From sequence record PZ445446.1: a stretch of DNA of 64,000 nucleotides; one strand, given 5' to 3'. Shown one piece after another: positions 40,719 through 47,509 of this stretch. A program made the position numbers and the translations under genes. The stretch is from a phage. Under the pieces are notes generated by a model. That model saw only the letters and a program-made list of their open reading frames with translations. It searched no databases and was not told the DNA's origin. How positions within the stretch are numbered: the first letter of the stretch is position 1; every line of letters begins with the position of its first letter.

Positions 40719-41010
40719 AAACATCACCCCCGCAGGGTTCTTAAAAGTATACCGTGAACTGCTATATACTACAGAGGACAGTGTTCTAGAGTATCCAGAA
40801 TATCTTTTGCTGTATAAGTATCTGCAGGAGGCTGGTGAAAATCTGCCAGTTAGTGCAGAAGGTGGTCCGAACTGGATATACAGCGCATGGAGAAAGGTTG
40901 ACATTCTCCCCGACCCAGGTAAAGATATGGTAGTTTGGCAGCTTATTAACAACATCGGGATTCCAATCTTTGATGAAGCTGTTAAAATCTATTTTGAACT
41001 TGACGATTAA
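40708..41010 (+). CDS. hypothetical protein
   Basis: ATG after AGGAGAAG (track start 40690 trimmed). Confidence 0.4.
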   Translation: MKTENITPAGFLKVYRELLYTTEDSVLEYPEYLLLYKYLQEAGENLPVSAEGGPNWIYSAWRKVDILPDPGKDMVVWQLINNIGIPIFDEAVKIYFELDD

Positions 41011-41027
41011 TATCAGGAGACCTTAAG

Positions 41028-41273
41028 ATGACTGAAGTAGTTGCTCGCGCAGGACAGAAAGTACGTTGTGTTGAAGTAGGTTTTGGTGGCAAAGGGTGTC
41101 AAAACTTGACTCAAGGTAAGGAATACGCTGTTATTTCTGGTGGTGGCGACGAAAGTATTGTGTTCGAGGGCCACATCCTGGATGCTGAAAACTTTGAAAT
41201 CTTTGACGACGATGGAGATCCGATCACCTGCCTGCTGGACGGGAATTGGGGAACTTTCGAAGTGATTGGCTAA
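41028..41273 (+). CDS. hypothetical small protein
   Basis: 81 aa; AGGAGA RBS; FDDDGDPITCLLDGNWG weakly related to paralog family. Confidence 0.45.
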   Translation: MTEVVARAGQKVRCVEVGFGGKGCQNLTQGKEYAVISGGGDESIVFEGHILDAENFEIFDDDGDPITCLLDGNWGTFEVIG

Positions 41274-41356
41274 CAAATACCTATTGTAATTTACAGAAGG
41301 GGATGCTAAAATAGTGTCTCCTTCTATGTTGTTCAAATAAAATCGGAGATTCCATA

Positions 41357-41722
41357 ATGGAACAAATGAACGATCAAGCGTCGGTTGCGATGAACGAGCA
41401 AGAACAACCTCAAGAATTTTTCTTAGGGTTAAGTAAAGATCAAGTGTCTCTTCTGCTAGTGCTTTCTTCTTTCATGGGAAGACTTCAGGAGCTCACACAA
41501 CAGCCAGAGGCTGAACAATTATTCCAAGCTTTGCGTGAAGAAGAAAAATATCGTCGTTTGGACTATGCCTTAGGTTGGGTAGCTCAACAACGAGATATGC
41601 TGATGGCCCTCTCTGGGACCACAAGTTTTGCAATGGGCCTGCTGGCTCAAGTTCAGGACAAATTAATTCAAGCAGGGTTTGCACACACGGCAAACACTAA
41701 CGAAGAACAAGGAGACAAATAA
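41357..41722 (+). CDS. hypothetical protein
   Basis: 121-aa ORF with RBS. Confidence 0.45.
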   Translation: MEQMNDQASVAMNEQEQPQEFFLGLSKDQVSLLLVLSSFMGRLQELTQQPEAEQLFQALREEEKYRRLDYALGWVAQQRDMLMALSGTTSFAMGLLAQVQDKLIQAGFAHTANTNEEQGDK

Positions 41723-42948
41723 TGAGCGTTATTCAACAATTTGCTAACCCGATGAATCCGCGTGAAACTGTTTTACTGGCTCACGGCATGATTAAACGTG
41801 TCAGCATCAAACCTATCAAAGGTGCTGATCCTACAACAGGTATTAAAACCACTGTGTGGCAAGGTAAGAAAATTGAGTCCAGCCACACCATCTCTTTACT
41901 GATTTCTGAACTGGATTCCTCTGATAACCTGCTTCAAGGTGGTGAAGAAGTCTGGATCAGTATGGGTGATAAACTGCTTAAACCGGGTCATCAAGACTCT
42001 GTCTCTGTTAAAATTGATGACAAGTGGGAAACCGTAACACCGGGATGGATCGTAAATATCCCTTTGAAGGCAAACGAGCATAACGGTAAGACCTATTACA
42101 AAGGCTCACTGGCTAAGATGGTCAAGCTGGGGGCAGGAGAGGCTCCAGCAGCGACTCAGCAGCAAAAACAGCAACAAGGTGCACAATCACAAGGCCAGAA
42201 GCAGAAACCTCAGCAGAATGCCAATCAGGACGTTTTACGCATCTATGGTGATGTGACTCAGATTGTTGGCAACGTGGTTACTGTTAATGACCACAAGATT
42301 GGCGAAGGTGCTATGGTTGTCACTGATGAGCAGCTTAAAGACCTGGTGGTAGGTGGTCGTGTTGCAGCCATTGTTGACAAAGACACCGGAAACATTATCA
42401 GTGGTTTCAAAGCCTATCCACCTAAGTCAGAGAACGGCACCCAAGGCTCTGGTGGCAAGCGTAAATCCTCTTACGACCCTATTGGTGTGGAGACGGGACA
42501 TAGCATCAATGCGTTGCAAATCATCCTAGATCGCGGGTTTAAGGTGGACGACCCACTAAGCGTGGCTAAAACACTGCACGTAGTCACCATTGAGCTTAAG
42601 AAAGAGTATGCTCAAGCCACCAACCGAACTGAGGATGAAGTAGGTGCCAGTGTCGGTAATGCGGTGTTGAACGCTTGTCGCCGTATTGACAAGAAAACGA
42701 AAGTTGATGATTTTGCAGCGGCAATTACTGCAGAAGCAAAAGATGTCTTGACTAATCTGGCTGAGCCGTTGTACGATTGGATCAAGAACGGTGCTGGGTC
42801 AACTGACCATCAAGAACCTCAGGCTGCCAAACAGGAAGCAGCTCCACAGCAAAATACTGTAGACGCTCCTCCTGTAAATGATGAGGAAGATGACCCGATG
42901 GATCAGAATCCAGCACAGTACGCCTTTGATGATGACATCCCATTCTAA
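41722..42948 (+). CDS. ssb: single-stranded DNA-binding protein with acidic C-terminal tip
   Basis: 408 aa; Q-rich linker; terminal …AFDDDIPF matches the bacterial SSB C-terminal tip; OB-fold assumed N-terminal. Confidence 0.6.
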   Translation: MSVIQQFANPMNPRETVLLAHGMIKRVSIKPIKGADPTTGIKTTVWQGKKIESSHTISLLISELDSSDNLLQGGEEVWISMGDKLLKPGHQDSVSVKIDDKWETVTPGWIVNIPLKANEHNGKTYYKGSLAKMVKLGAGEAPAATQQQKQQQGAQSQGQKQKPQQNANQDVLRIYGDVTQIVGNVVTVNDHKIGEGAMVVTDEQLKDLVVGGRVAAIVDKDTGNIISGFKAYPPKSENGTQGSGGKRKSSYDPIGVETGHSINALQIILDRGFKVDDPLSVAKTLHVVTIELKKEYAQATNRTEDEVGASVGNAVLNACRRIDKKTKVDDFAAAITAEAKDVLTNLAEPLYDWIKNGAGSTDHQEPQAAKQEAAPQQNTVDAPPVNDEEDDPMDQNPAQYAFDDDIPF

Positions 42949-42963
42949 CATATAGTTAACATA

Positions 42964-42991
42964 GCCCTGCCCGAAAGGGTGGGGCATTTTT
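42964..42991 (+). terminator. intrinsic terminator (GAAA tetraloop), copy 2
   Basis: Same hairpin after SSB stop, then ATTTTTG. Confidence 0.65.
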
Positions 42992-43010
42992 GTATAAGGA
43001 GATCTGAAAA

Positions 43011-43427
43011 ATGACATTAGAAGATATCATTGTTAAGCCTGAGAACTATGACCAATACAACCTGTCAACTCAATCTGTAGACCTTGGATGCGCCACGGTC
43101 AGTGCGTGGCTGGTTAACGGAAAAGAGCTGGATAAATGCTTAGAAGCTCACATGTCTATTAACAAGTTTCTGGATGAAAATACTCACTGGCTTGAGGGTG
43201 CAGGCGTATATGCTTCATGGTTGGAGAGTATGGGATTCGACTACCAATCTGAAGAGGGGTGGTGGAGCTATTTAGCTATCTGCCCAGAGACGCTGCAATG
43301 CTTCATGAAATATTCTGAAGATTTAGAGTATCGCGCTGTGGTTGACAGTGCTATTGCCCGTTATAGCCGTAAACCTTTTTCCCACGACATTAAAACTGTG
43401 GAAGAATTTGTTGAAGTTTTCTGTTGA
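43011..43427 (+). CDS. hypothetical protein
   Basis: 138-aa ORF after terminator and AGGAGA RBS. Confidence 0.45.
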   Translation: MTLEDIIVKPENYDQYNLSTQSVDLGCATVSAWLVNGKELDKCLEAHMSINKFLDENTHWLEGAGVYASWLESMGFDYQSEEGWWSYLAICPETLQCFMKYSEDLEYRAVVDSAIARYSRKPFSHDIKTVEEFVEVFC

Positions 43428-43523
43428 CACAGGTTGAAAGGTGTGCAATTATAACTTCATAGAACGGGAGGACGTGATGAACGAAGAAAACTGGGATGTA
43501 TAACTAACAGGAGGCCACTGCCC

Positions 43524-43721
43524 ATGATTTATCGAATCCGTGTAAGAGAAGATGCACCAGGCTGTTACTTTGACTGGCGTGGGTGGTGGTTTCTCCACCC
43601 GATGGATGGACTCACAGATAGAATGCTGGATGCTGCCCTTTATACAGATACCGACATAGAATATAATCTCTATCTGAAGGACGGTATAGATAACGGTCTA
43701 TTTGAAGCAATTCCTGTGTAA
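43524..43721 (+). CDS. hypothetical small protein
   Basis: 65 aa; AGGAGG RBS. Confidence 0.4.
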   Translation: MIYRIRVREDAPGCYFDWRGWWFLHPMDGLTDRMLDAALYTDTDIEYNLYLKDGIDNGLFEAIPV

Positions 43722-43789
43722 GAGACTGTGATAGCCATGTTTTATGATCTTCCTGTAGCACCACCACCTGTTGAACCTGGAGAACTAAG

Positions 43790-44215
43790 ATGATCTATGA
43801 AATGCCAAAACTGATTCGTGACGATGCCCAAAACGCTCACACCATTATTATGGGCAAACGCATGGATATTATTTGTCATAAAGATTTCTGGGAAGGAAGT
43901 TACTTCACAGAGTATTTTGGTAAACTGGACAATGGTCTGCTGATCCAGTTCTACACCGATGCGGAAAACAACATTCACTGGGAGTTCGAAACTGAAGATA
44001 TCCATAAACTTTTCACCTTCCTCGGTATTAAGGTTGAGGCCAAGTTTGAAGAAGGTGAGTGCGACGATTGTGGATTCTATGAGGTAACAGATTTCTACCT
44101 TCCAAGTGGTAAAAATCTCTACTACGAAAGCCACTTCGGCAACTCAAATATGCCACAGGGTTGGGATGAGTTTTTGGAAATTGCAGAAGAGGAGCTGAAA
44201 TACCGTGATTATTGA
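43790..44215 (+). CDS. hypothetical protein
   Basis: 141-aa ORF, overlaps next gene start. Confidence 0.45.
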   Translation: MIYEMPKLIRDDAQNAHTIIMGKRMDIICHKDFWEGSYFTEYFGKLDNGLLIQFYTDAENNIHWEFETEDIHKLFTFLGIKVEAKFEEGECDDCGFYEVTDFYLPSGKNLYYESHFGNSNMPQGWDEFLEIAEEELKYRDY

Positions 44216-44663
44216 TACTGTAAAGGGAGATCTAATCTCCATTTTCAAGAAAGGGTCAGGCCACATGATCCACGGTTGTAACTGCTTTCACACAATGGGT
44301 GCAGGTATAGCGAAAGATATTGCCCGTGAGTTCCCTCAAGCACTGGCAGCCGACAAAGAGACTGCTTATGGTAATCTAGACAAGCTGGGTATGTTTTCTT
44401 GTTGGGAGCATTTTGCCAAGACCAGGGTCGTATATGGAATCAACCTGTATACCCAGTTCTACCCAGGGCCCAATGCTGAATACTTCTCAATCATGAAAGG
44501 TTTTGAGCGAGTCAACGAGGTATTCAAAGGTATGTCATTGCCGTTCTACATTCCTAAAATCGGATGCGGTATTGGAGGTCTAAAGTGGGAACATGTAGAA
44601 GATGTAATTAATCTTGCAACCACAGATATTGATGTGGTTGTAGTAGAGTACAAAAAGTGTTGA
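44205..44663 (+). CDS. macrodomain protein (TARG1/DarG-like ADP-ribose hydrolase fold)
   Basis: 152 aa; HGCNCFHTMGAGIAKDIA and PKIGCGIGGLKWEHV resemble the glycine-rich ADP-ribose-binding loops of TARG1/OARD1-type macrodomains. Confidence 0.55.
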   Translation: MIIDTVKGDLISIFKKGSGHMIHGCNCFHTMGAGIAKDIAREFPQALAADKETAYGNLDKLGMFSCWEHFAKTRVVYGINLYTQFYPGPNAEYFSIMKGFERVNEVFKGMSLPFYIPKIGCGIGGLKWEHVEDVINLATTDIDVVVVEYKKC

Positions 44664-44717
44664 CGACCATCTTCTGAGGTGATATAGTTTCCACAACAAC
44701 TAAAAGAGGAGAGCACT

Positions 44718-44888
44718 GTGGAGACTAAAATCTTAATTCTTGCTGTGGTAGATACAACCGAAGGAGCTATATTCGAATCTGCAGGAGGGTATTTCTACCT
44801 ACCATACGGAAAAAGAACTTCCGAGCCAAGTAAAGATTCAATCCTCAAAGTGTTCCCGTGTGCTTTCTGGCTGGAGATTTTGGTATAA
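44718..44888 (+). CDS. hypothetical small protein (below 60-aa track cutoff)
   Basis: 56 codons from GTG, preceded by AGAGGAGAG RBS; fills gap between annotated ORFs. Confidence 0.35.
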   Translation: METKILILAVVDTTEGAIFESAGGYFYLPYGKRTSEPSKDSILKVFPCAFWLEILV

Positions 44889-44914
44889 GATTGCAGATGA
44901 TTTGGGAGAGAATT

Positions 44915-45109
44915 ATGAGAAACAAGAAAGAACTTTACTCTGGTGAGTGGATCAACGATCAACAGGTGGGAGAGGTAACCTGCTTCCGATGTTTTACCAG
45001 GTACAATCTTAAAACTGCACCAAAAAGTGTTCCAAAGACTGATGGTTATTATATAAAAGAACCTCATTGCCCAAAATGTAAATGCCGATTGTACTGGAGC
45101 AATCTGTAA
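44915..45109 (+). CDS. small zinc-ribbon protein
   Basis: ATG after GGGAGAG; CFRC…CPKCKC Cys pairs. Confidence 0.45.
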   Translation: MRNKKELYSGEWINDQQVGEVTCFRCFTRYNLKTAPKSVPKTDGYYIKEPHCPKCKCRLYWSNL

Positions 45110-45112
45110 GAG

Positions 45113-45141
45113 GTTGACATCTGAAAACTGCAGTGTATAAT
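45113..45141 (+). promoter_or_regulatory. sigma70-type promoter TTGACA-N17-TATAAT
   Basis: Consensus hexamers about 30 nt upstream of ATG 45173. Confidence 0.6.
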
Positions 45142-45172
45142 ATACGCATAAACTAACAGAGAGCGATGTATT

Positions 45173-45364
45173 ATGGTAATTTTTAACCGGGATGGTATCA
45201 TAGTTAGACAGCACCCGTTCCTTGAATACTATCAAATTGAGCAATGGTGCTACGGGGATTGCAGTCACTCCTATGGGCAAAGTTGGGGATACCGTACAGT
45301 TTTTGAATCCACAGACCTTGACAAAGTAAGACAGAAAGTTTTAGAACTTATTAACAACAAGTGA
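45173..45364 (+). CDS. hypothetical small protein
   Basis: 63 aa; downstream of TTGACA-N17-TATAAT promoter. Confidence 0.5.
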   Translation: MVIFNRDGIIVRQHPFLEYYQIEQWCYGDCSHSYGQSWGYRTVFESTDLDKVRQKVLELINNK

Positions 45365-45371
45365 GTATGAT

Positions 45372-45704
45372 ATGGTAACATTAGAAAGACGTAAAGCTAT
45401 TGCCGCCACACTGGCAGACATCTTTTGGGATTGTAATTTAAAATCTACCCGAAATTGTGGCGCATCTGTAGATGTATTATTCCCACGGCCTACTATTGTT
45501 GCAATGGGCAACCTTCTTGATGTGGTATATGGAGCATGGGACAAGGAAGGTGGATTCTATATCTGGCAACCTGACTACGGGACTTGGAAAGAGGTTAGTG
45601 GTTCTACGGACTTCACTCCTGCAGTGGCTAAAATGGATGGCTGGAAAATCTATGTCGGTAACGACATGGAACTGAAAGGCGAAATTGTTTACTGGTTACC
45701 TTAA
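45372..45704 (+). CDS. hypothetical protein
   Basis: 110-aa ORF. Confidence 0.45.
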   Translation: MVTLERRKAIAATLADIFWDCNLKSTRNCGASVDVLFPRPTIVAMGNLLDVVYGAWDKEGGFYIWQPDYGTWKEVSGSTDFTPAVAKMDGWKIYVGNDMELKGEIVYWLP

Positions 45705-45724
45705 GAAAGTGCAGGAGATAAAGT

Positions 45725-45970
45725 ATGAACAAAGGGTGGACATTTGTAGACGGCGTTGAAAACATGCCTCTAGGAAAGTATATTGTAGCCATGGCAGATG
45801 AGAATGGCAAGGTTGATTTCGGAGCTTGCGAGATTGTTCTTGCAGGATCTGGTGACCATGTGCACAAAACTGGGATAATTAACGGTCATTTCTACTTTGA
45901 TTACAACCCTGTTGTGGCGTATATGGCTATGCCAGAGTTAGAGCTCCCAAAGGAGGGTGCAGATGTTTAA
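45725..45970 (+). CDS. hypothetical small protein
   Basis: 81 aa; AGGAGA RBS. Confidence 0.45.
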   Translation: MNKGWTFVDGVENMPLGKYIVAMADENGKVDFGACEIVLAGSGDHVHKTGIINGHFYFDYNPVVAYMAMPELELPKEGADV

Positions 45971-46160
45971 GCTTAAATCTGCATGGAACATCGCTGTGGG
46001 GGATGAGATCCGCATCCCAGGTGGAAAGACCATTATGAAGATATCACGTATCGAGTATGAAGGTGATCGTGTATTTCATATCTTTGCAGAAGATGGTCGA
46101 GAAATTTATATACAGGCAGGCTCTCACATCTATATCAGTAAGAAAGGGGACGACAAATGA
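45957..46160 (+). CDS. hypothetical small protein
   Basis: 67 aa, overlaps neighbours. Confidence 0.4.
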   Translation: MQMFKLKSAWNIAVGDEIRIPGGKTIMKISRIEYEGDRVFHIFAEDGREIYIQAGSHIYISKKGDDK

Positions 46161-46489
46161 CAGAGATCATCGTTTCAACTGCAGGGTATGTATTCCTGAC
46201 AATCATTGCGTTGGCTATTCTGGTGGCGGTGTATGGATTTGTTATCCTGCCTATTCTTGAGACATTTAGCTTGTGTCGGTGTTGGAGAAAAGCTTACGGA
46301 CCACAACCGTGGAAAGACTGGTTTCATTTGGTGCGTATAGCGTTCTCTTATGCCTATGATCACTCCAGCAGTGCATGCGTAACCGGGTACCATGCCTACA
46401 ACTGGAACTGGGAAGGGCTTGGGAGATGGACTGTTACAAAAACTATACCCTTACGGTTGTATAAAGGAAAGAACACACTGGGAGCCTGA
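46157..46489 (+). CDS. membrane protein
   Basis: 110 aa; N-terminal hydrophobic helices (YVFLTIIALAILVAVYGFVILPIL). Confidence 0.45.
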   Translation: MTEIIVSTAGYVFLTIIALAILVAVYGFVILPILETFSLCRCWRKAYGPQPWKDWFHLVRIAFSYAYDHSSSACVTGYHAYNWNWEGLGRWTVTKTIPLRLYKGKNTLGA

Positions 46490-46799
46490 TATTTTAAGTT
46501 ATCAGATTGCCAGAGATCAGGAGGATTTCTAAAATGGATTTCCTCCTTTTGATATTTTACCTACCAGGATATTTTAAAATCCTTAGAAAATCAGAAAATG
46601 GATCGAAAACTAAAATGGATTTTTCAGAGCAGGCACGACGAGATGAACCACTCATCCTATCGTCTGCACCATATTCCAGACCACCATTACAGATTTCCCG
46701 CACATGCTCACACCCTTCTACTAGAACTTCCCCCACTTACCCTTGACCTTTTATAGTAATAATCCAACCACTACCTTGAAGTTGTGGCGCAGCTTTCCA

Positions 46800-46887
46800 A
46801 GTACTCGATCTGTTTTTCGTTTCAAAGATTGAATTTTCTGAAAATTTTTCTCGATAAATTTCTCAGTACTCGATCTGTTTTTCGTTT
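46800..46887. repeat. 23-bp perfect direct repeat pair (agtactcgatctgtttttcgttt)
   Basis: Copies at 46800-46822 and 46865-46887; partial third copy near 46947-46963. Confidence 0.65.
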
Positions 46888-47090
46888 TCTGAATCGGATT
46901 TTCTGGAAATCGTTCCGGCTCTCGACCTGAAATTTTTGGGGACGAAATCGATTTTTCGTTTTCAGAAATGGATTTTTAAAATTTCTATATGGGAATATTT
47001 TAGTGGATACTATTTTATAGGAAATTGTTACGGAGGATAATTAGCGTGCTAATTAAATTTATTAAATGCGAGGAGTTCTCATTTAGAATT

Positions 47091-47109
47091 TTGAATGATA
47101 ATCATTCTC
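47091..47109. promoter_or_regulatory. Fur-box-like operator (15 of 19 to GATAATGATAATCATTATC)
   Basis: ttgaatgataatcattctc; overlaps candidate -10 hexamers. Confidence 0.5.
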
Positions 47110-47122
47110 GTTTGCAGAATAA

Positions 47123-47165
47123 CGGGCAGGCCCGGTGATTGTCTCCCGGCCCCTACTGCCCCGGC
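47123..47165. repeat. GC-rich structured repeat, copy 1 (core CCGGTGATTGTCTCCC)
   Basis: Follows Fur box A; flanking GGGCAG/CTGCCC can pair around core. Confidence 0.5.
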
Positions 47166-47226
47166 TTGTTATTATAGTAACACACAGGACAAAGAAAGCA
47201 AGAAGTTTTTGCATAAATTTTTAGAC

Positions 47227-47245
47227 GATAATGATAATCGTTCTC
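47227..47245. promoter_or_regulatory. Fur-box-like operator (17 of 19 to consensus)
   Basis: gataatgataatcgttctc; preceded by TTGCAT about 17 nt upstream, so box overlaps a candidate -10. Confidence 0.55.
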
Positions 47246-47254
47246 ATTTCATGC

Positions 47255-47300
47255 AGCGCCCATCCCCGGTGGTTGTCTCCCCCGTCACCGGTGCCTGCCG
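47255..47300. repeat. GC-rich structured repeat, copy 2 (core CCGGTGGTTGTCTCCC)
   Basis: Follows Fur box B; CCGGTG/CACCGG stem. Confidence 0.5.
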
Positions 47301-47509
47301 TCCTTTCGATAGGTATATTTTGCCACCTGGCGGGGCCGCTGTCAACACTTTTCAAAAAAAAAAAAAATTCTAACCTGATGCGCTGACCGCTGCAACCTGG
47401 CGGGGCCAGCCTGGCAGGGCCTAACTGACCAGGTAGGAGAGAATGAAGGCTTGCAAACCTGGTGGGCCTATGCTATAGGATAGGTAACAATTGAAGAGGA
47501 GGTACAAAA

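What the first reader, a model, noticed from the sequence alone, without database searches (positions are those of the whole stretch)
44205..44663. Phage-encoded TARG1/DarG-like macrodomain: candidate counter-defence against ADP-ribosylating immunity
Seen in sequence: 152-aa protein with HGCNCFHTMGAGIAKDIA and PKIGCGIGGLKWEHV, resembling the ADP-ribose-binding loops of TARG1/OARD1-type macrodomains. Established knowledge: the same fold is used by DarG antitoxins to remove DarT ADP-ribose from DNA. Inference: the phage may reverse host ADP-ribosylation of DNA or protein.
Basis: partly seen in the sequence, partly recalled or inferred. Interest (0 to 1): 0.6.

Follow-up and report, generated by a model that had tools for sequence, protein, structure and literature searches.

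The report
Phage macrodomain, likely anti-DarT2 eraser
This E. coli phage gene encodes a small ADP-ribose-removing enzyme of the same family as phage T4 Tk.4/AdfM, which was recently shown to protect T4 from the bacterial DarTG2 defence, so it is a credible but untested new member of a known kind of counter-defence gene.

Summary

The window is an rV5-like Vequintavirinae phage, 99.9% identical to Escherichia phage JeffSchatz. The protein is a full-length homologue of T4 Tk.4 (40% identity, E 1e-44). A November 2025 preprint named Tk.4 AdfM because its knockout makes T4 sensitive to DarTG2.

One refinement: the protein lacks the catalytic Lys of DarG and TARG1 and the Asp of TARG1. It has an invariant Gln (Q84) instead, as do SCO6735 and BT1257. 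SCO6735 cleaves thymidine-linked ADP-ribose and needs that Gln. The protein has no DarT-binding domain and no neighbouring ADP-ribosyltransferase. Cellular relatives are orphan 150-aa genes, not DarG antitoxins.

Verdict: new member of a known kind, of modest interest.

The parts
44205..44663 (+). Coding sequence of the 152-aa stand-alone macrodomain protein (GTG start, TGA stop). It belongs to the T4 Tk.4/AdfM family.
   Evidence: ORF; Pfam Macro, phrog_335; 40% identity to T4 Tk.4, E 1e-44; structure and fold
44189..44194 (+). Shine-Dalgarno sequence GAGGAG, 10 nt upstream of the GTG start. An in-frame TGA at 44196-44198 rules out the longer N-terminus annotated in phage PMBT16.
44271..44312 (+). 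Residues 23-36, HGCNCFHTMGAGIA: the first ADP-ribose-binding loop. N26 is equivalent to DarG N22 and PhiKZ AdfM N23. H23 is equivalent to Poa1p H23. G24, N26, C27, M31, G34 and A36 are invariant in the family.
   Evidence: PMC13309987
44442..44456 (+). Residues 80-84, NLYTQ. N80, Y82, T83 and Q84 are invariant. Q84 occupies the position of the catalytic Lys of TARG1 (K84) and DarG (K80), and of the essential Gln85 of SCO6735.
   Evidence: PMC9411070
44553..44579 (+). Residues 117-125, PKIGCGIGG: the diphosphate-binding loop. P117, G120 and G122 are invariant. G124 occupies the position of TARG1 D125.
43790..44215 (+). Upstream 141-aa ORF of unknown function (phrog_8157). Its stop overlaps the macrodomain start by 11 nt, so the two are probably co-transcribed and translationally coupled. 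No functional link has been shown.
42964..42985 (+). Strong terminator-like hairpin (9 bp, 7 GC pairs, followed by a T run) that bounds the small-gene block on its upstream side. This is context only.
43424..43667 (+). Two sigma-70-like promoter matches (43424-43452 and 43639-43667, each 10 of 12) that could drive early transcription of the block containing the gene. These are consensus matches only.

Best explanation
The gene encodes a catalytically competent, stand-alone macrodomain ADP-ribosyl-glycohydrolase of the TARG1/DarG (ALC1-like) class. It belongs to the phage family typified by T4 Tk.4/AdfM. It is probably made early in infection from host-type promoters. It most likely removes ADP-ribose that DarT2-type toxins, released from host DarTG2 systems on infection, attach to N3 of thymidine in single-stranded phage DNA. 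Removing that ADP-ribose would restore replication. The chemistry is predicted to follow the Gln-type route described for SCO6735, in which Gln84 positions the substrate and water, rather than the Lys-dependent route of DarG and TARG1. What is shown: the gene, the fold, the class, family membership, the active-site make-up, and the absence of a toxin partner. What is inferred: enzymatic activity, thymidine-ADPr as the substrate, DarTG2 as the target, and early expression.
Against: There is no experiment on this protein or on any Vequintavirinae homologue; Bas54 was not screened on DarTG2. Identity to T4 Tk.4 is only 40%. The T4 evidence is genetic, comes from a preprint, and includes no biochemistry for a Gln-type phage enzyme. 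The protein lacks the DarG/TARG1 catalytic Lys. It also lacks SCO6735's longer Lys-rich mobile loop and its K34, so DNA-directed activity cannot simply be transferred from SCO6735. The family is very widespread: 2,735 phage records, plus orphan copies in 345 bacterial genome loci with no DarT nearby. That distribution would also fit a more general ADP-ribose-related role. A published genomic survey argued that most phage macrodomains target small ADPr derivatives (PMC9503650).
Confidence: 0.62

Rival explanations
1. It erases other macromolecular ADP-ribosylation. Candidates are uracil- or other base-linked ADPr on RNA, or Glu/Asp-linked ADPr on proteins, placed by a different host defence or toxin. 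In this reading the enzyme is a broad eraser and DarT2 is only one target, or not the main one.
For: TARG1, DarG and Gln-type SCO6735 all hydrolyse U-ADPr on ssRNA (PMC13036486). SCO6735 also de-ADP-ribosylates proteins (PMC9411070). RNA-targeting ART defences such as CmdTAC exist (PMC11618068). The family is spread far more widely than any one defence system.
Against: CmdT modifies N6 of adenine, not N3 of a pyrimidine (PMC11833690). SCO6735 is inactive on 2'-OH RNA-ADPr, and in that paper's assays it is also inactive on 5'-phosphate ADPr. In T4 the only condition reported to make tk.4 essential was DarTG2. No phage-encoded ART was found in the window that would need reversing.
Confidence: 0.17
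2. It processes small ADP-ribose derivatives. It could be an ADP-ribose-1''-phosphate phosphatase or an O-acetyl-ADP-ribose deacetylase (the old 'phosphatase / Poa1p-like' annotation), or it could degrade ADPr-derived immune signals or toxic metabolites.
Against: No KptA/Tpt1, 2H phosphoesterase or RNA-ligase partner that would generate Appr-1''-p was found in the window. Poa1p F152 corresponds to Gly124. The 'phosphatase' label is inherited by homology and has not been tested. It is established knowledge that many macrodomains show weak Appr-1''-p phosphatase activity in vitro with no physiological meaning. The T4 homologue has a specific DarTG2 phenotype.
Confidence: 0.12
3. It works without catalysis. 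It would bind and block DarT (or sequester an ADPr ligand) stoichiometrically, as the C-terminal domain of DarG, AdfA and AdfB do.
For: Catalytically dead SCO6735 Q85A, DarG K80A and TARG1 K84A macrodomains all inhibit DarT in vitro by binding, and SCO6735 does so most strongly (PMC9411070). ICP1 AdfB is a non-enzymatic DarT inhibitor (PMC11481870).
Against: All ADP-ribose-binding and catalysis-linked positions (N26, G32-A36, N80, Q84, G120, G122) are invariant or nearly so across phage and bacterial homologues that face very different toxins. That pattern indicates selection on an active site, not on a toxin-specific interface. The protein also lacks a DarG-like C-terminal DarT-binding domain.
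Confidence: 0.05

Closest known systems
T4 Tk.4 = AdfM (anti-DarT factor Macrodomain; bioRxiv 10.1101/2025.11.20.689424)
   Same: Both are stand-alone macrodomains of about 150 aa in lytic myoviruses of E. coli. They share 40% identity and 67% similarity over the full length and the same PHROG family. They carry the same signature: HGCNCFHTMG(A/S)G, ADK, NLYTQF, P(K/R)IG.GIG. Both score weakly on the DarG model, 47 and 36 bits.
   Different: The phage subfamily differs (Vequintavirinae against Tevenvirinae), and so does the genomic neighbourhood: tk-vs in T4, and a block of unknown small genes downstream of the DNA polymerase gene here. The window gene is untested.
Streptomyces coelicolor SCO6735 (PDB 5E3B) and Bacteroides BT1257 (PDB 2AFC/2FG1): Gln-type ALC1-like macrodomains
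   Different: Identity is only 21-26%. The window protein lacks the 5-6-residue longer mobile loop carrying Lys89 and Lys93, and it has Ala33 in place of Lys34. SCO6735 and BT1257 are cellular proteins, and SCO6735 is DNA-damage-induced.
DarG antitoxin of DarTG2 (T. aquaticus / M. tuberculosis; PDB 5M31, 5M3I; NCBIfam NF048014)
   Different: There is no catalytic Lys80 (Gln here), no C-terminal DarT-binding domain (152 aa against about 340) and no adjacent darT. The NCBIfam score is 46 bits against a cut-off of 250, and the PADLOC DarG match covers only positions 3-143 of 329.
PhiKZ gp104 = chimallivirus AdfM (PMC13309987)
   Same: It is a phage-encoded stand-alone macrodomain that counters DarTG2, and it falls in the same broad PHROG family.
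   Different: Identity is only 21% (BLASTP E 5e-4). PhiKZ AdfM is a true DarG-like Lys-type enzyme (N23/K78; FPTK aligns with YTQ). It scores 133 bits on the DarG model against 47 here. It is imported into the phage nucleus and expressed late.
Human TARG1/OARD1 (PDB 4J5R)
   Same: It is the top Foldseek hit (TM 0.79-0.86).
   Different: The TARG1 catalytic dyad K84/D125 is replaced by Q84/G124. Identity is 23-26%.
Yeast Poa1p (PDB 6LFQ), ADP-ribose-1''-phosphate phosphatase
   Different: Poa1p is 177 aa with insertions, and its F152 corresponds to Gly124. It acts on a tRNA-splicing by-product, and this phage window shows no pathway that would make that by-product.

Membership tests
Macro domain superfamily (Pfam PF01661) | The sequence matches the family model above the curated threshold. 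| tested here: met
   26 bits against a gathering score of 22, E 9.7e-6. The precomputed PF01661 hit is present on most homologues.
Macro domain superfamily (Pfam PF01661) | Three-layer alpha/beta/alpha fold with a central mixed sheet and a G.G diphosphate loop. | tested here: met
ALC1-like / TARG1 class of macrodomains | The protein is closer in structure and sequence to TARG1, DarG, SCO6735, BT1257 and Poa1p than to the MacroD, PARG or viral classes. | tested here: met
TARG1 (OARD1) orthologues | Catalytic Lys84/Asp125 dyad. | tested here: not met
   K84 aligns with Q84 and D125 aligns with G124.
DarG antitoxin (DarTG2; NCBIfam NF048014, PADLOC PDLC02990) | Catalytic lysine (Taq/Mtb K80) in the macrodomain. 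| tested here: not met
   FPTK of Mtb DarG aligns with LYTQ.
DarG antitoxin (DarTG2; NCBIfam NF048014, PADLOC PDLC02990) | C-terminal DarT-binding domain (full length about 330-350 aa), with a score above the equivalog cut-off. | tested here: not met
   The protein is 152 aa. The match covers model positions 2-144 of 338 at 46 bits against a cut-off of 250. The PADLOC match covers 3-143 of 329.
DarG antitoxin (DarTG2; NCBIfam NF048014, PADLOC PDLC02990) | Encoded next to a darT ADP-ribosyltransferase gene. | tested here: not met
   The neighbours have no ART domain. No ART was found in 62 further window ORFs.
T4 Tk.4 / AdfM family (Gln-type phage macrodomains) | Full-length homology to T4 Tk.4 and membership of the same phage protein family. 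| tested here: met
   40% identity, E 1e-44, residues 1-150 against 1-152. Both are in phrog_335, at E 6e-60 and 1e-65.
T4 Tk.4 / AdfM family (Gln-type phage macrodomains) | Shared active-site signature HGCNC ... N-x-Y-T-Q ... P-x-I-G-x-G. | tested here: met
   These columns are invariant in 98 sequences and are present in T4 Tk.4 and in distant phage homologues.
T4 Tk.4 / AdfM family (Gln-type phage macrodomains) | Loss of the gene sensitises the phage to DarTG2. | not testable with these tools
   This has been shown only for T4. Bas54, a Vequintavirinae phage, was not screened on DarTG2.
SCO6735 / BT1257 subgroup | Gln at the position of the catalytic lysine (SCO6735 Gln85). | tested here: met
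   The profile alignment places NaYTQ on NMIGQ. MAFFT gives the same result.
SCO6735 / BT1257 subgroup | Extended Lys-rich mobile loop (K89, K93) and K34, proposed to clamp ssDNA. | tested here: not met
   The window has FYPG------PNAEY where SCO6735 has HGMKTGSKG-APVRY, and A33 where SCO6735 has K34 (PMC9411070).
Poa1p-type ADP-ribose-1''-phosphate phosphatase | Residues probed in the Poa1p structures (H23, S30, F152). | tested here: inconclusive
   H23 aligns with H23, S30 with T30 and F152 with G124 (mutant names). The native numbering offset is inferred, and the Poa1p paper is not held.

The most novel reading that the evidence does not exclude
The Gln-type HGCNC/NxYTQ macrodomains may form one ancient clade of orphan 'nucleic-acid ADP-ribose erasers' shared by phages, giant viruses and bacteria. 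This would include the window protein, T4 Tk.4, thousands of phage copies and hundreds of orphan bacterial copies. The clade would not derive from DarG antitoxins and would use a lysine-independent mechanism. Its members might remove base-linked ADP-ribose from both DNA and RNA whichever toxin placed it. If so, the window gene would protect against more, and still unknown, ADP-ribosylating defences than DarTG2 alone.
Probability: 0.25. Interest if true: 0.6.

Novelty: new member of a known kind. Interest (0 to 1): 0.3.

Why it matters
If the gene works as predicted, Vequintavirinae carry a ready-made enzymatic antidote to DarTG2. These are broad-host-range E. coli phages of interest for therapy, so the gene bears on predicting their host range on clinical isolates that encode DarTG. 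The analysis also shows that phage proteins now both called 'AdfM' fall into two mechanistically different subfamilies: a DarG-like Lys type in PhiKZ, and a SCO6735-like Gln type in T4 and this phage. The Gln type is the more common in phages, with 2,735 records, and also exists as orphan genes in bacteria. That gives biochemists a concrete residue (Q84) and a clear comparison to test. The general concept of a phage macrodomain that erases DarT marks is already published.

Tried and rejected
(1) A longer N-terminus, as annotated in PMBT16 (165 aa), was rejected. The window has an in-frame TGA at 44196-44198, and homologues start at the GTG.

(2) A truncated or degenerate DarG was rejected. There is no C-terminal domain, no darT and no catalytic Lys, and the scores are far below the equivalog cut-off.

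(3) A partner gene in the neighbourhood was looked for and not found. Ten flanking ORFs are all PHROG 'unknown function', with only one zinc-binding-domain Pfam hit. 62 further window ORFs show no ART, NADAR, Nudix, sirtuin, KptA or RNA ligase.

(4) I tested whether cellular relatives are DarT-linked. 80 bacterial loci were examined. The median ORF is 152 aa. The only widely shared ORF cluster is the macrodomain gene itself. The apparent 27-locus and 16-locus clusters are GC-rich antisense artefacts. The Ruegeria neighbours are housekeeping genes: EamA, ribosomal proteins S12 and S7, and a rhamnosyl transferase.

(5) Recent horizontal acquisition was checked by base composition and not supported. 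GC is 0.43-0.44, the same as the flanks.

(6) No tRNAs and no Rfam families were found in the window.

(7) The single-sequence HMMER alignment to SCO6735 put the Gln four residues out of register. The profile alignment, MAFFT and the structure-based alignment in PMC9411070 all agree on Q84 = Gln85.

(8) The LeRoux 2022 DarTG paper (PMC9250638) and the Poa1p structure paper are not held. I therefore could not check DarTG2 sensitivity of rV5-like phages or the Poa1p mechanism from the literature.

Full report
**Observation**

Window 44205-44663 (+) is an intact 152-aa ORF. The GTG start is credible for three reasons. GAGGAG lies 10 nt upstream, at 44189-44194. An in-frame TGA at 44196-44198 closes the frame upstream. 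Homologues, including T4 Tk.4, align from the first residues. In the near-identical phage PMBT16 that TGA is TGG, and the gene was annotated 13 codons longer. The shorter form is the conserved one.

**Identity of the window**

The region is 99.9% identical to Escherichia phage JeffSchatz and 95-99% identical to many other rV5-like Vequintavirinae. In those records the gene is annotated variously as 'hypothetical', 'macro domain protein', 'Poa1p-like' or 'phosphatase'.

**What the protein is**

- Pfam Macro scores above its gathering threshold.
- PHROG 335 ('phosphatase') matches at E 6e-60.
- NCBIfam and PADLOC find only the macrodomain third of DarG, far below the equivalog cut-off.
- An AlphaFold2 model built on a 98-sequence alignment is very confident, with pLDDT 97.1 and pTM 0.91.
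- Foldseek ranks human TARG1 first.

**Active site**

The family alignment has these invariant residues: G24, N26, C27, M31, G34, A36, D50, N80, Y82, T83, Q84, P117, G120 and G122. Three alignments were used to map known catalytic residues onto it: profile-to-PDB, hhalign against PhiKZ gp104, and a 13-sequence MAFFT alignment. They agree on the following:

- Q84 occupies the position of the catalytic lysine of TARG1 (K84), DarG (K80) and PhiKZ AdfM (K78).
- G124 occupies the position of TARG1 D125.
- The motif N-x-x-x-Q is shared with BT1257 and SCO6735 (NMIGQ).

In SCO6735 this Gln85 is structurally equivalent to the catalytic lysine. Changing it to Ala or Glu abolishes activity. The enzyme removes DarT-made thymidine-ADP-ribose from DNA more efficiently than DarG or TARG1, and it rescues cells from DarT (PMC9411070).

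All six distant phage homologues that I sampled are Gln-type. They come from Ounavirinae, Pseudomonas, Rhodococcus, Vibrio and Klebsiella phages and are 31-38% identical to the window protein.

The window protein lacks SCO6735's longer Lys-rich loop and its K34.

**Link to a known function**

The protein is 40% identical to T4 Tk.4 over its full length, with 67% similarity and E 1e-44, and it falls in the same PHROG family.

A November 2025 preprint reports that tk.4 was the single T4 gene that became conditionally essential on a DarTG2-expressing host. A clean knockout is sensitised to DarTG2. The authors named the gene adfM (bioRxiv 10.1101/2025.11.20.689424).

Independently, the PhiKZ macrodomain gp104, also called AdfM, removes thymidine-ADPr in vitro and protects chimalliviruses from DarTG2 (PMC13309987). 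PhiKZ gp104 is a different subfamily:

- It is 21% identical to the window protein.
- It is Lys-type.
- It scores 133 bits on the DarG model, against 47 for the window protein and 36 for T4 Tk.4.

The same preprint built a transposon library in the Vequintavirinae phage Bas54 but did not challenge it with DarTG2. The role in this clade is therefore inferred, not shown.

**Context**

The gene lies in a long same-strand run of small genes downstream of the family A DNA polymerase gene. Its start overlaps the stop of an upstream 141-aa ORF by 11 nt. All ten neighbours are of unknown function.

The region is enriched in sigma-70-like promoter matches, 23 found against 13 +/- 2.9 expected. It follows a strong terminator-like hairpin at 42964-42985. 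Both features fit an early accessory-gene block. GC content matches the flanks.

None of the 72 window ORFs that I scanned has an ART, NADAR, Nudix, sirtuin, KptA or RNA-ligase domain. That weakens the idea that the enzyme reverses a phage-made modification or clears an RNA-repair by-product.

**Distribution and origin**

- Homologues occur in 2,735 of 50,697 phage records.
- 345 loci were found in the species-representative bacterial genome set.
- In the 80 bacterial loci retrieved, the gene is a stand-alone ORF of about 152 aa with HGCNC and N-x-Y-(T/S)-Q intact.
- Those loci share no recurrent neighbour. The only other widely shared clusters were antisense artefacts, and the rest came from a few closely related Ruegeria strains with housekeeping neighbours.

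This family is therefore not simply a truncated DarG antitoxin. Its cellular relatives are orphans, like SCO6735 and BT1257. Scores against solved structures do not resolve which cellular lineage is closest: BT1257 scores 60 bits, SCO6735 59, TARG1 55 and Mtb DarG 55.

**Mechanism proposed**

The protein is made early in infection. It binds ADP-ribosyl-thymidine on single-stranded phage DNA through the GAGIA and GCGIGG loops. It hydrolyses the N-glycosidic bond by a lysine-independent, water-mediated mechanism in which Q84 and N26 position the substrate, as proposed for SCO6735. This frees replication from the block imposed by DarT2.

- Shown here: the gene, the fold, the class, family membership, the Gln-type site, and the absence of a partner gene.
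- Inferred: catalysis, the substrate, the DarTG2 target and the timing of expression.

**Rivals**

- *A broader or different macromolecular substrate.* TARG1-class enzymes, including SCO6735, also cleave U-ADPr on RNA (PMC13036486).
- *Small-molecule ADPr processing.* This is the old 'phosphatase' label. Poa1p is as close structurally as DarG, H23 and T30 align with Poa1p H23 and S30, and a genomic survey favoured small-molecule targets for phage macrodomains (PMC9503650).
- *Non-catalytic DarT inhibition.* Inactive class members inhibit DarT in vitro.

The DarTG2-specific phenotype of the T4 homologue and the strict conservation of the active site make these less likely. None of them is excluded.

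**Verdict**

The finding is a new, untested member of a recently characterised kind of phage counter-defence gene. The useful addition from this analysis is that the gene and T4 AdfM belong to a Gln-type subfamily distinct from DarG, TARG1 and PhiKZ AdfM. Interest is modest.

Noticed in passing
window 43000-46000 (GenBank MG065659, MG065655, MG065654, MG065666 and others): Sixteen records named 'Campylobacter phage' are about 96% identical to this E. coli rV5-like phage region. They are probably mislabelled or contaminant isolates.
   Followed up: no
H28: Escherichia phage UPWr_E1 (PP418985) 163175-163627: A T4-like (168 kb) phage carries a macrodomain 68% identical to the window protein, much closer than T4 Tk.4 at 40%. 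This suggests exchange of the gene between Vequintavirinae and T4-like phages.
   Followed up: no
between window 42948 and 43011; L002 8371-8949: Phage PMBT16 has an extra 'endonuclease VII' gene inserted here that the window lacks. It may be a mobile or homing-type insertion next to the terminator-like hairpin at 42964-42985.
   Followed up: no
window 45114-45141 (+): A perfect sigma-70 consensus promoter (TTGACA, 16 nt, TATAAT) lies just downstream of the macrodomain gene. Promoter-like sites are enriched across 41000-47500, 23 found against 13 +/- 2.9 expected.
   Followed up: partly
BFVD hits A0A481YV05 and A0A481YRS7 (Marseillevirus LCMAC103 / LCMAC101): A giant-virus 'SNF2 subfamily protein' (302 aa) contains a macrodomain with TM 0.93 and 40% identity to the window protein. 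Another Marseillevirus protein, named uracil-DNA glycosylase (453 aa), also matches the macrodomain model more weakly (TMq 0.75, 21% identity). Both may be ALC1-like chromatin/repair fusions using this Gln-type family.
   Followed up: no
L004 (HP1_119, 264 aa), L008, L009; BFVD Q6J2P1 (Acinetobacter phage 133 tk.4, 245 aa): In many other phages the homologous macrodomain carries a C-terminal extension of 50-110 aa that is absent from the window protein and from T4 Tk.4. Its function is unknown.
   Followed up: no
window 1-35700 (ORFs scanned as alignment A3): The window also encodes a DUF2201_N metallopeptidase-like / DUF2201 VWA-like protein with AAA-type ATPase hits, an N6/N4 DNA methylase, and PIF1 and DnaB-like helicases. 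The HIDEN-SEQ preprint reports that a MoxR ATPase of the related phage Bas54 is needed against defence system DS-28, so the AAA/VWA pair here may be its orthologue.
   Followed up: no
L012-L091 (bacterial genome loci): 345 bacterial genome loci encode orphan 150-aa macrodomains of this same HGCNC/NxYTQ type with no conserved neighbour. They span the Roseobacter group, Desulfobacteraceae, Bacteroidota, Verrucomicrobiota and Planctomycetes. Their cellular role is unknown.
   Followed up: partly
window 44352-44354 (codon of D50): Asp50, in the motif A-D-K, is invariant in the 98-sequence family alignment. It is Tyr in SCO6735, BT1257 and Rhodococcus phage Weasels2. It may be a subfamily-specific functional residue, but I could not place it relative to the active site without model coordinates.
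   Followed up: no
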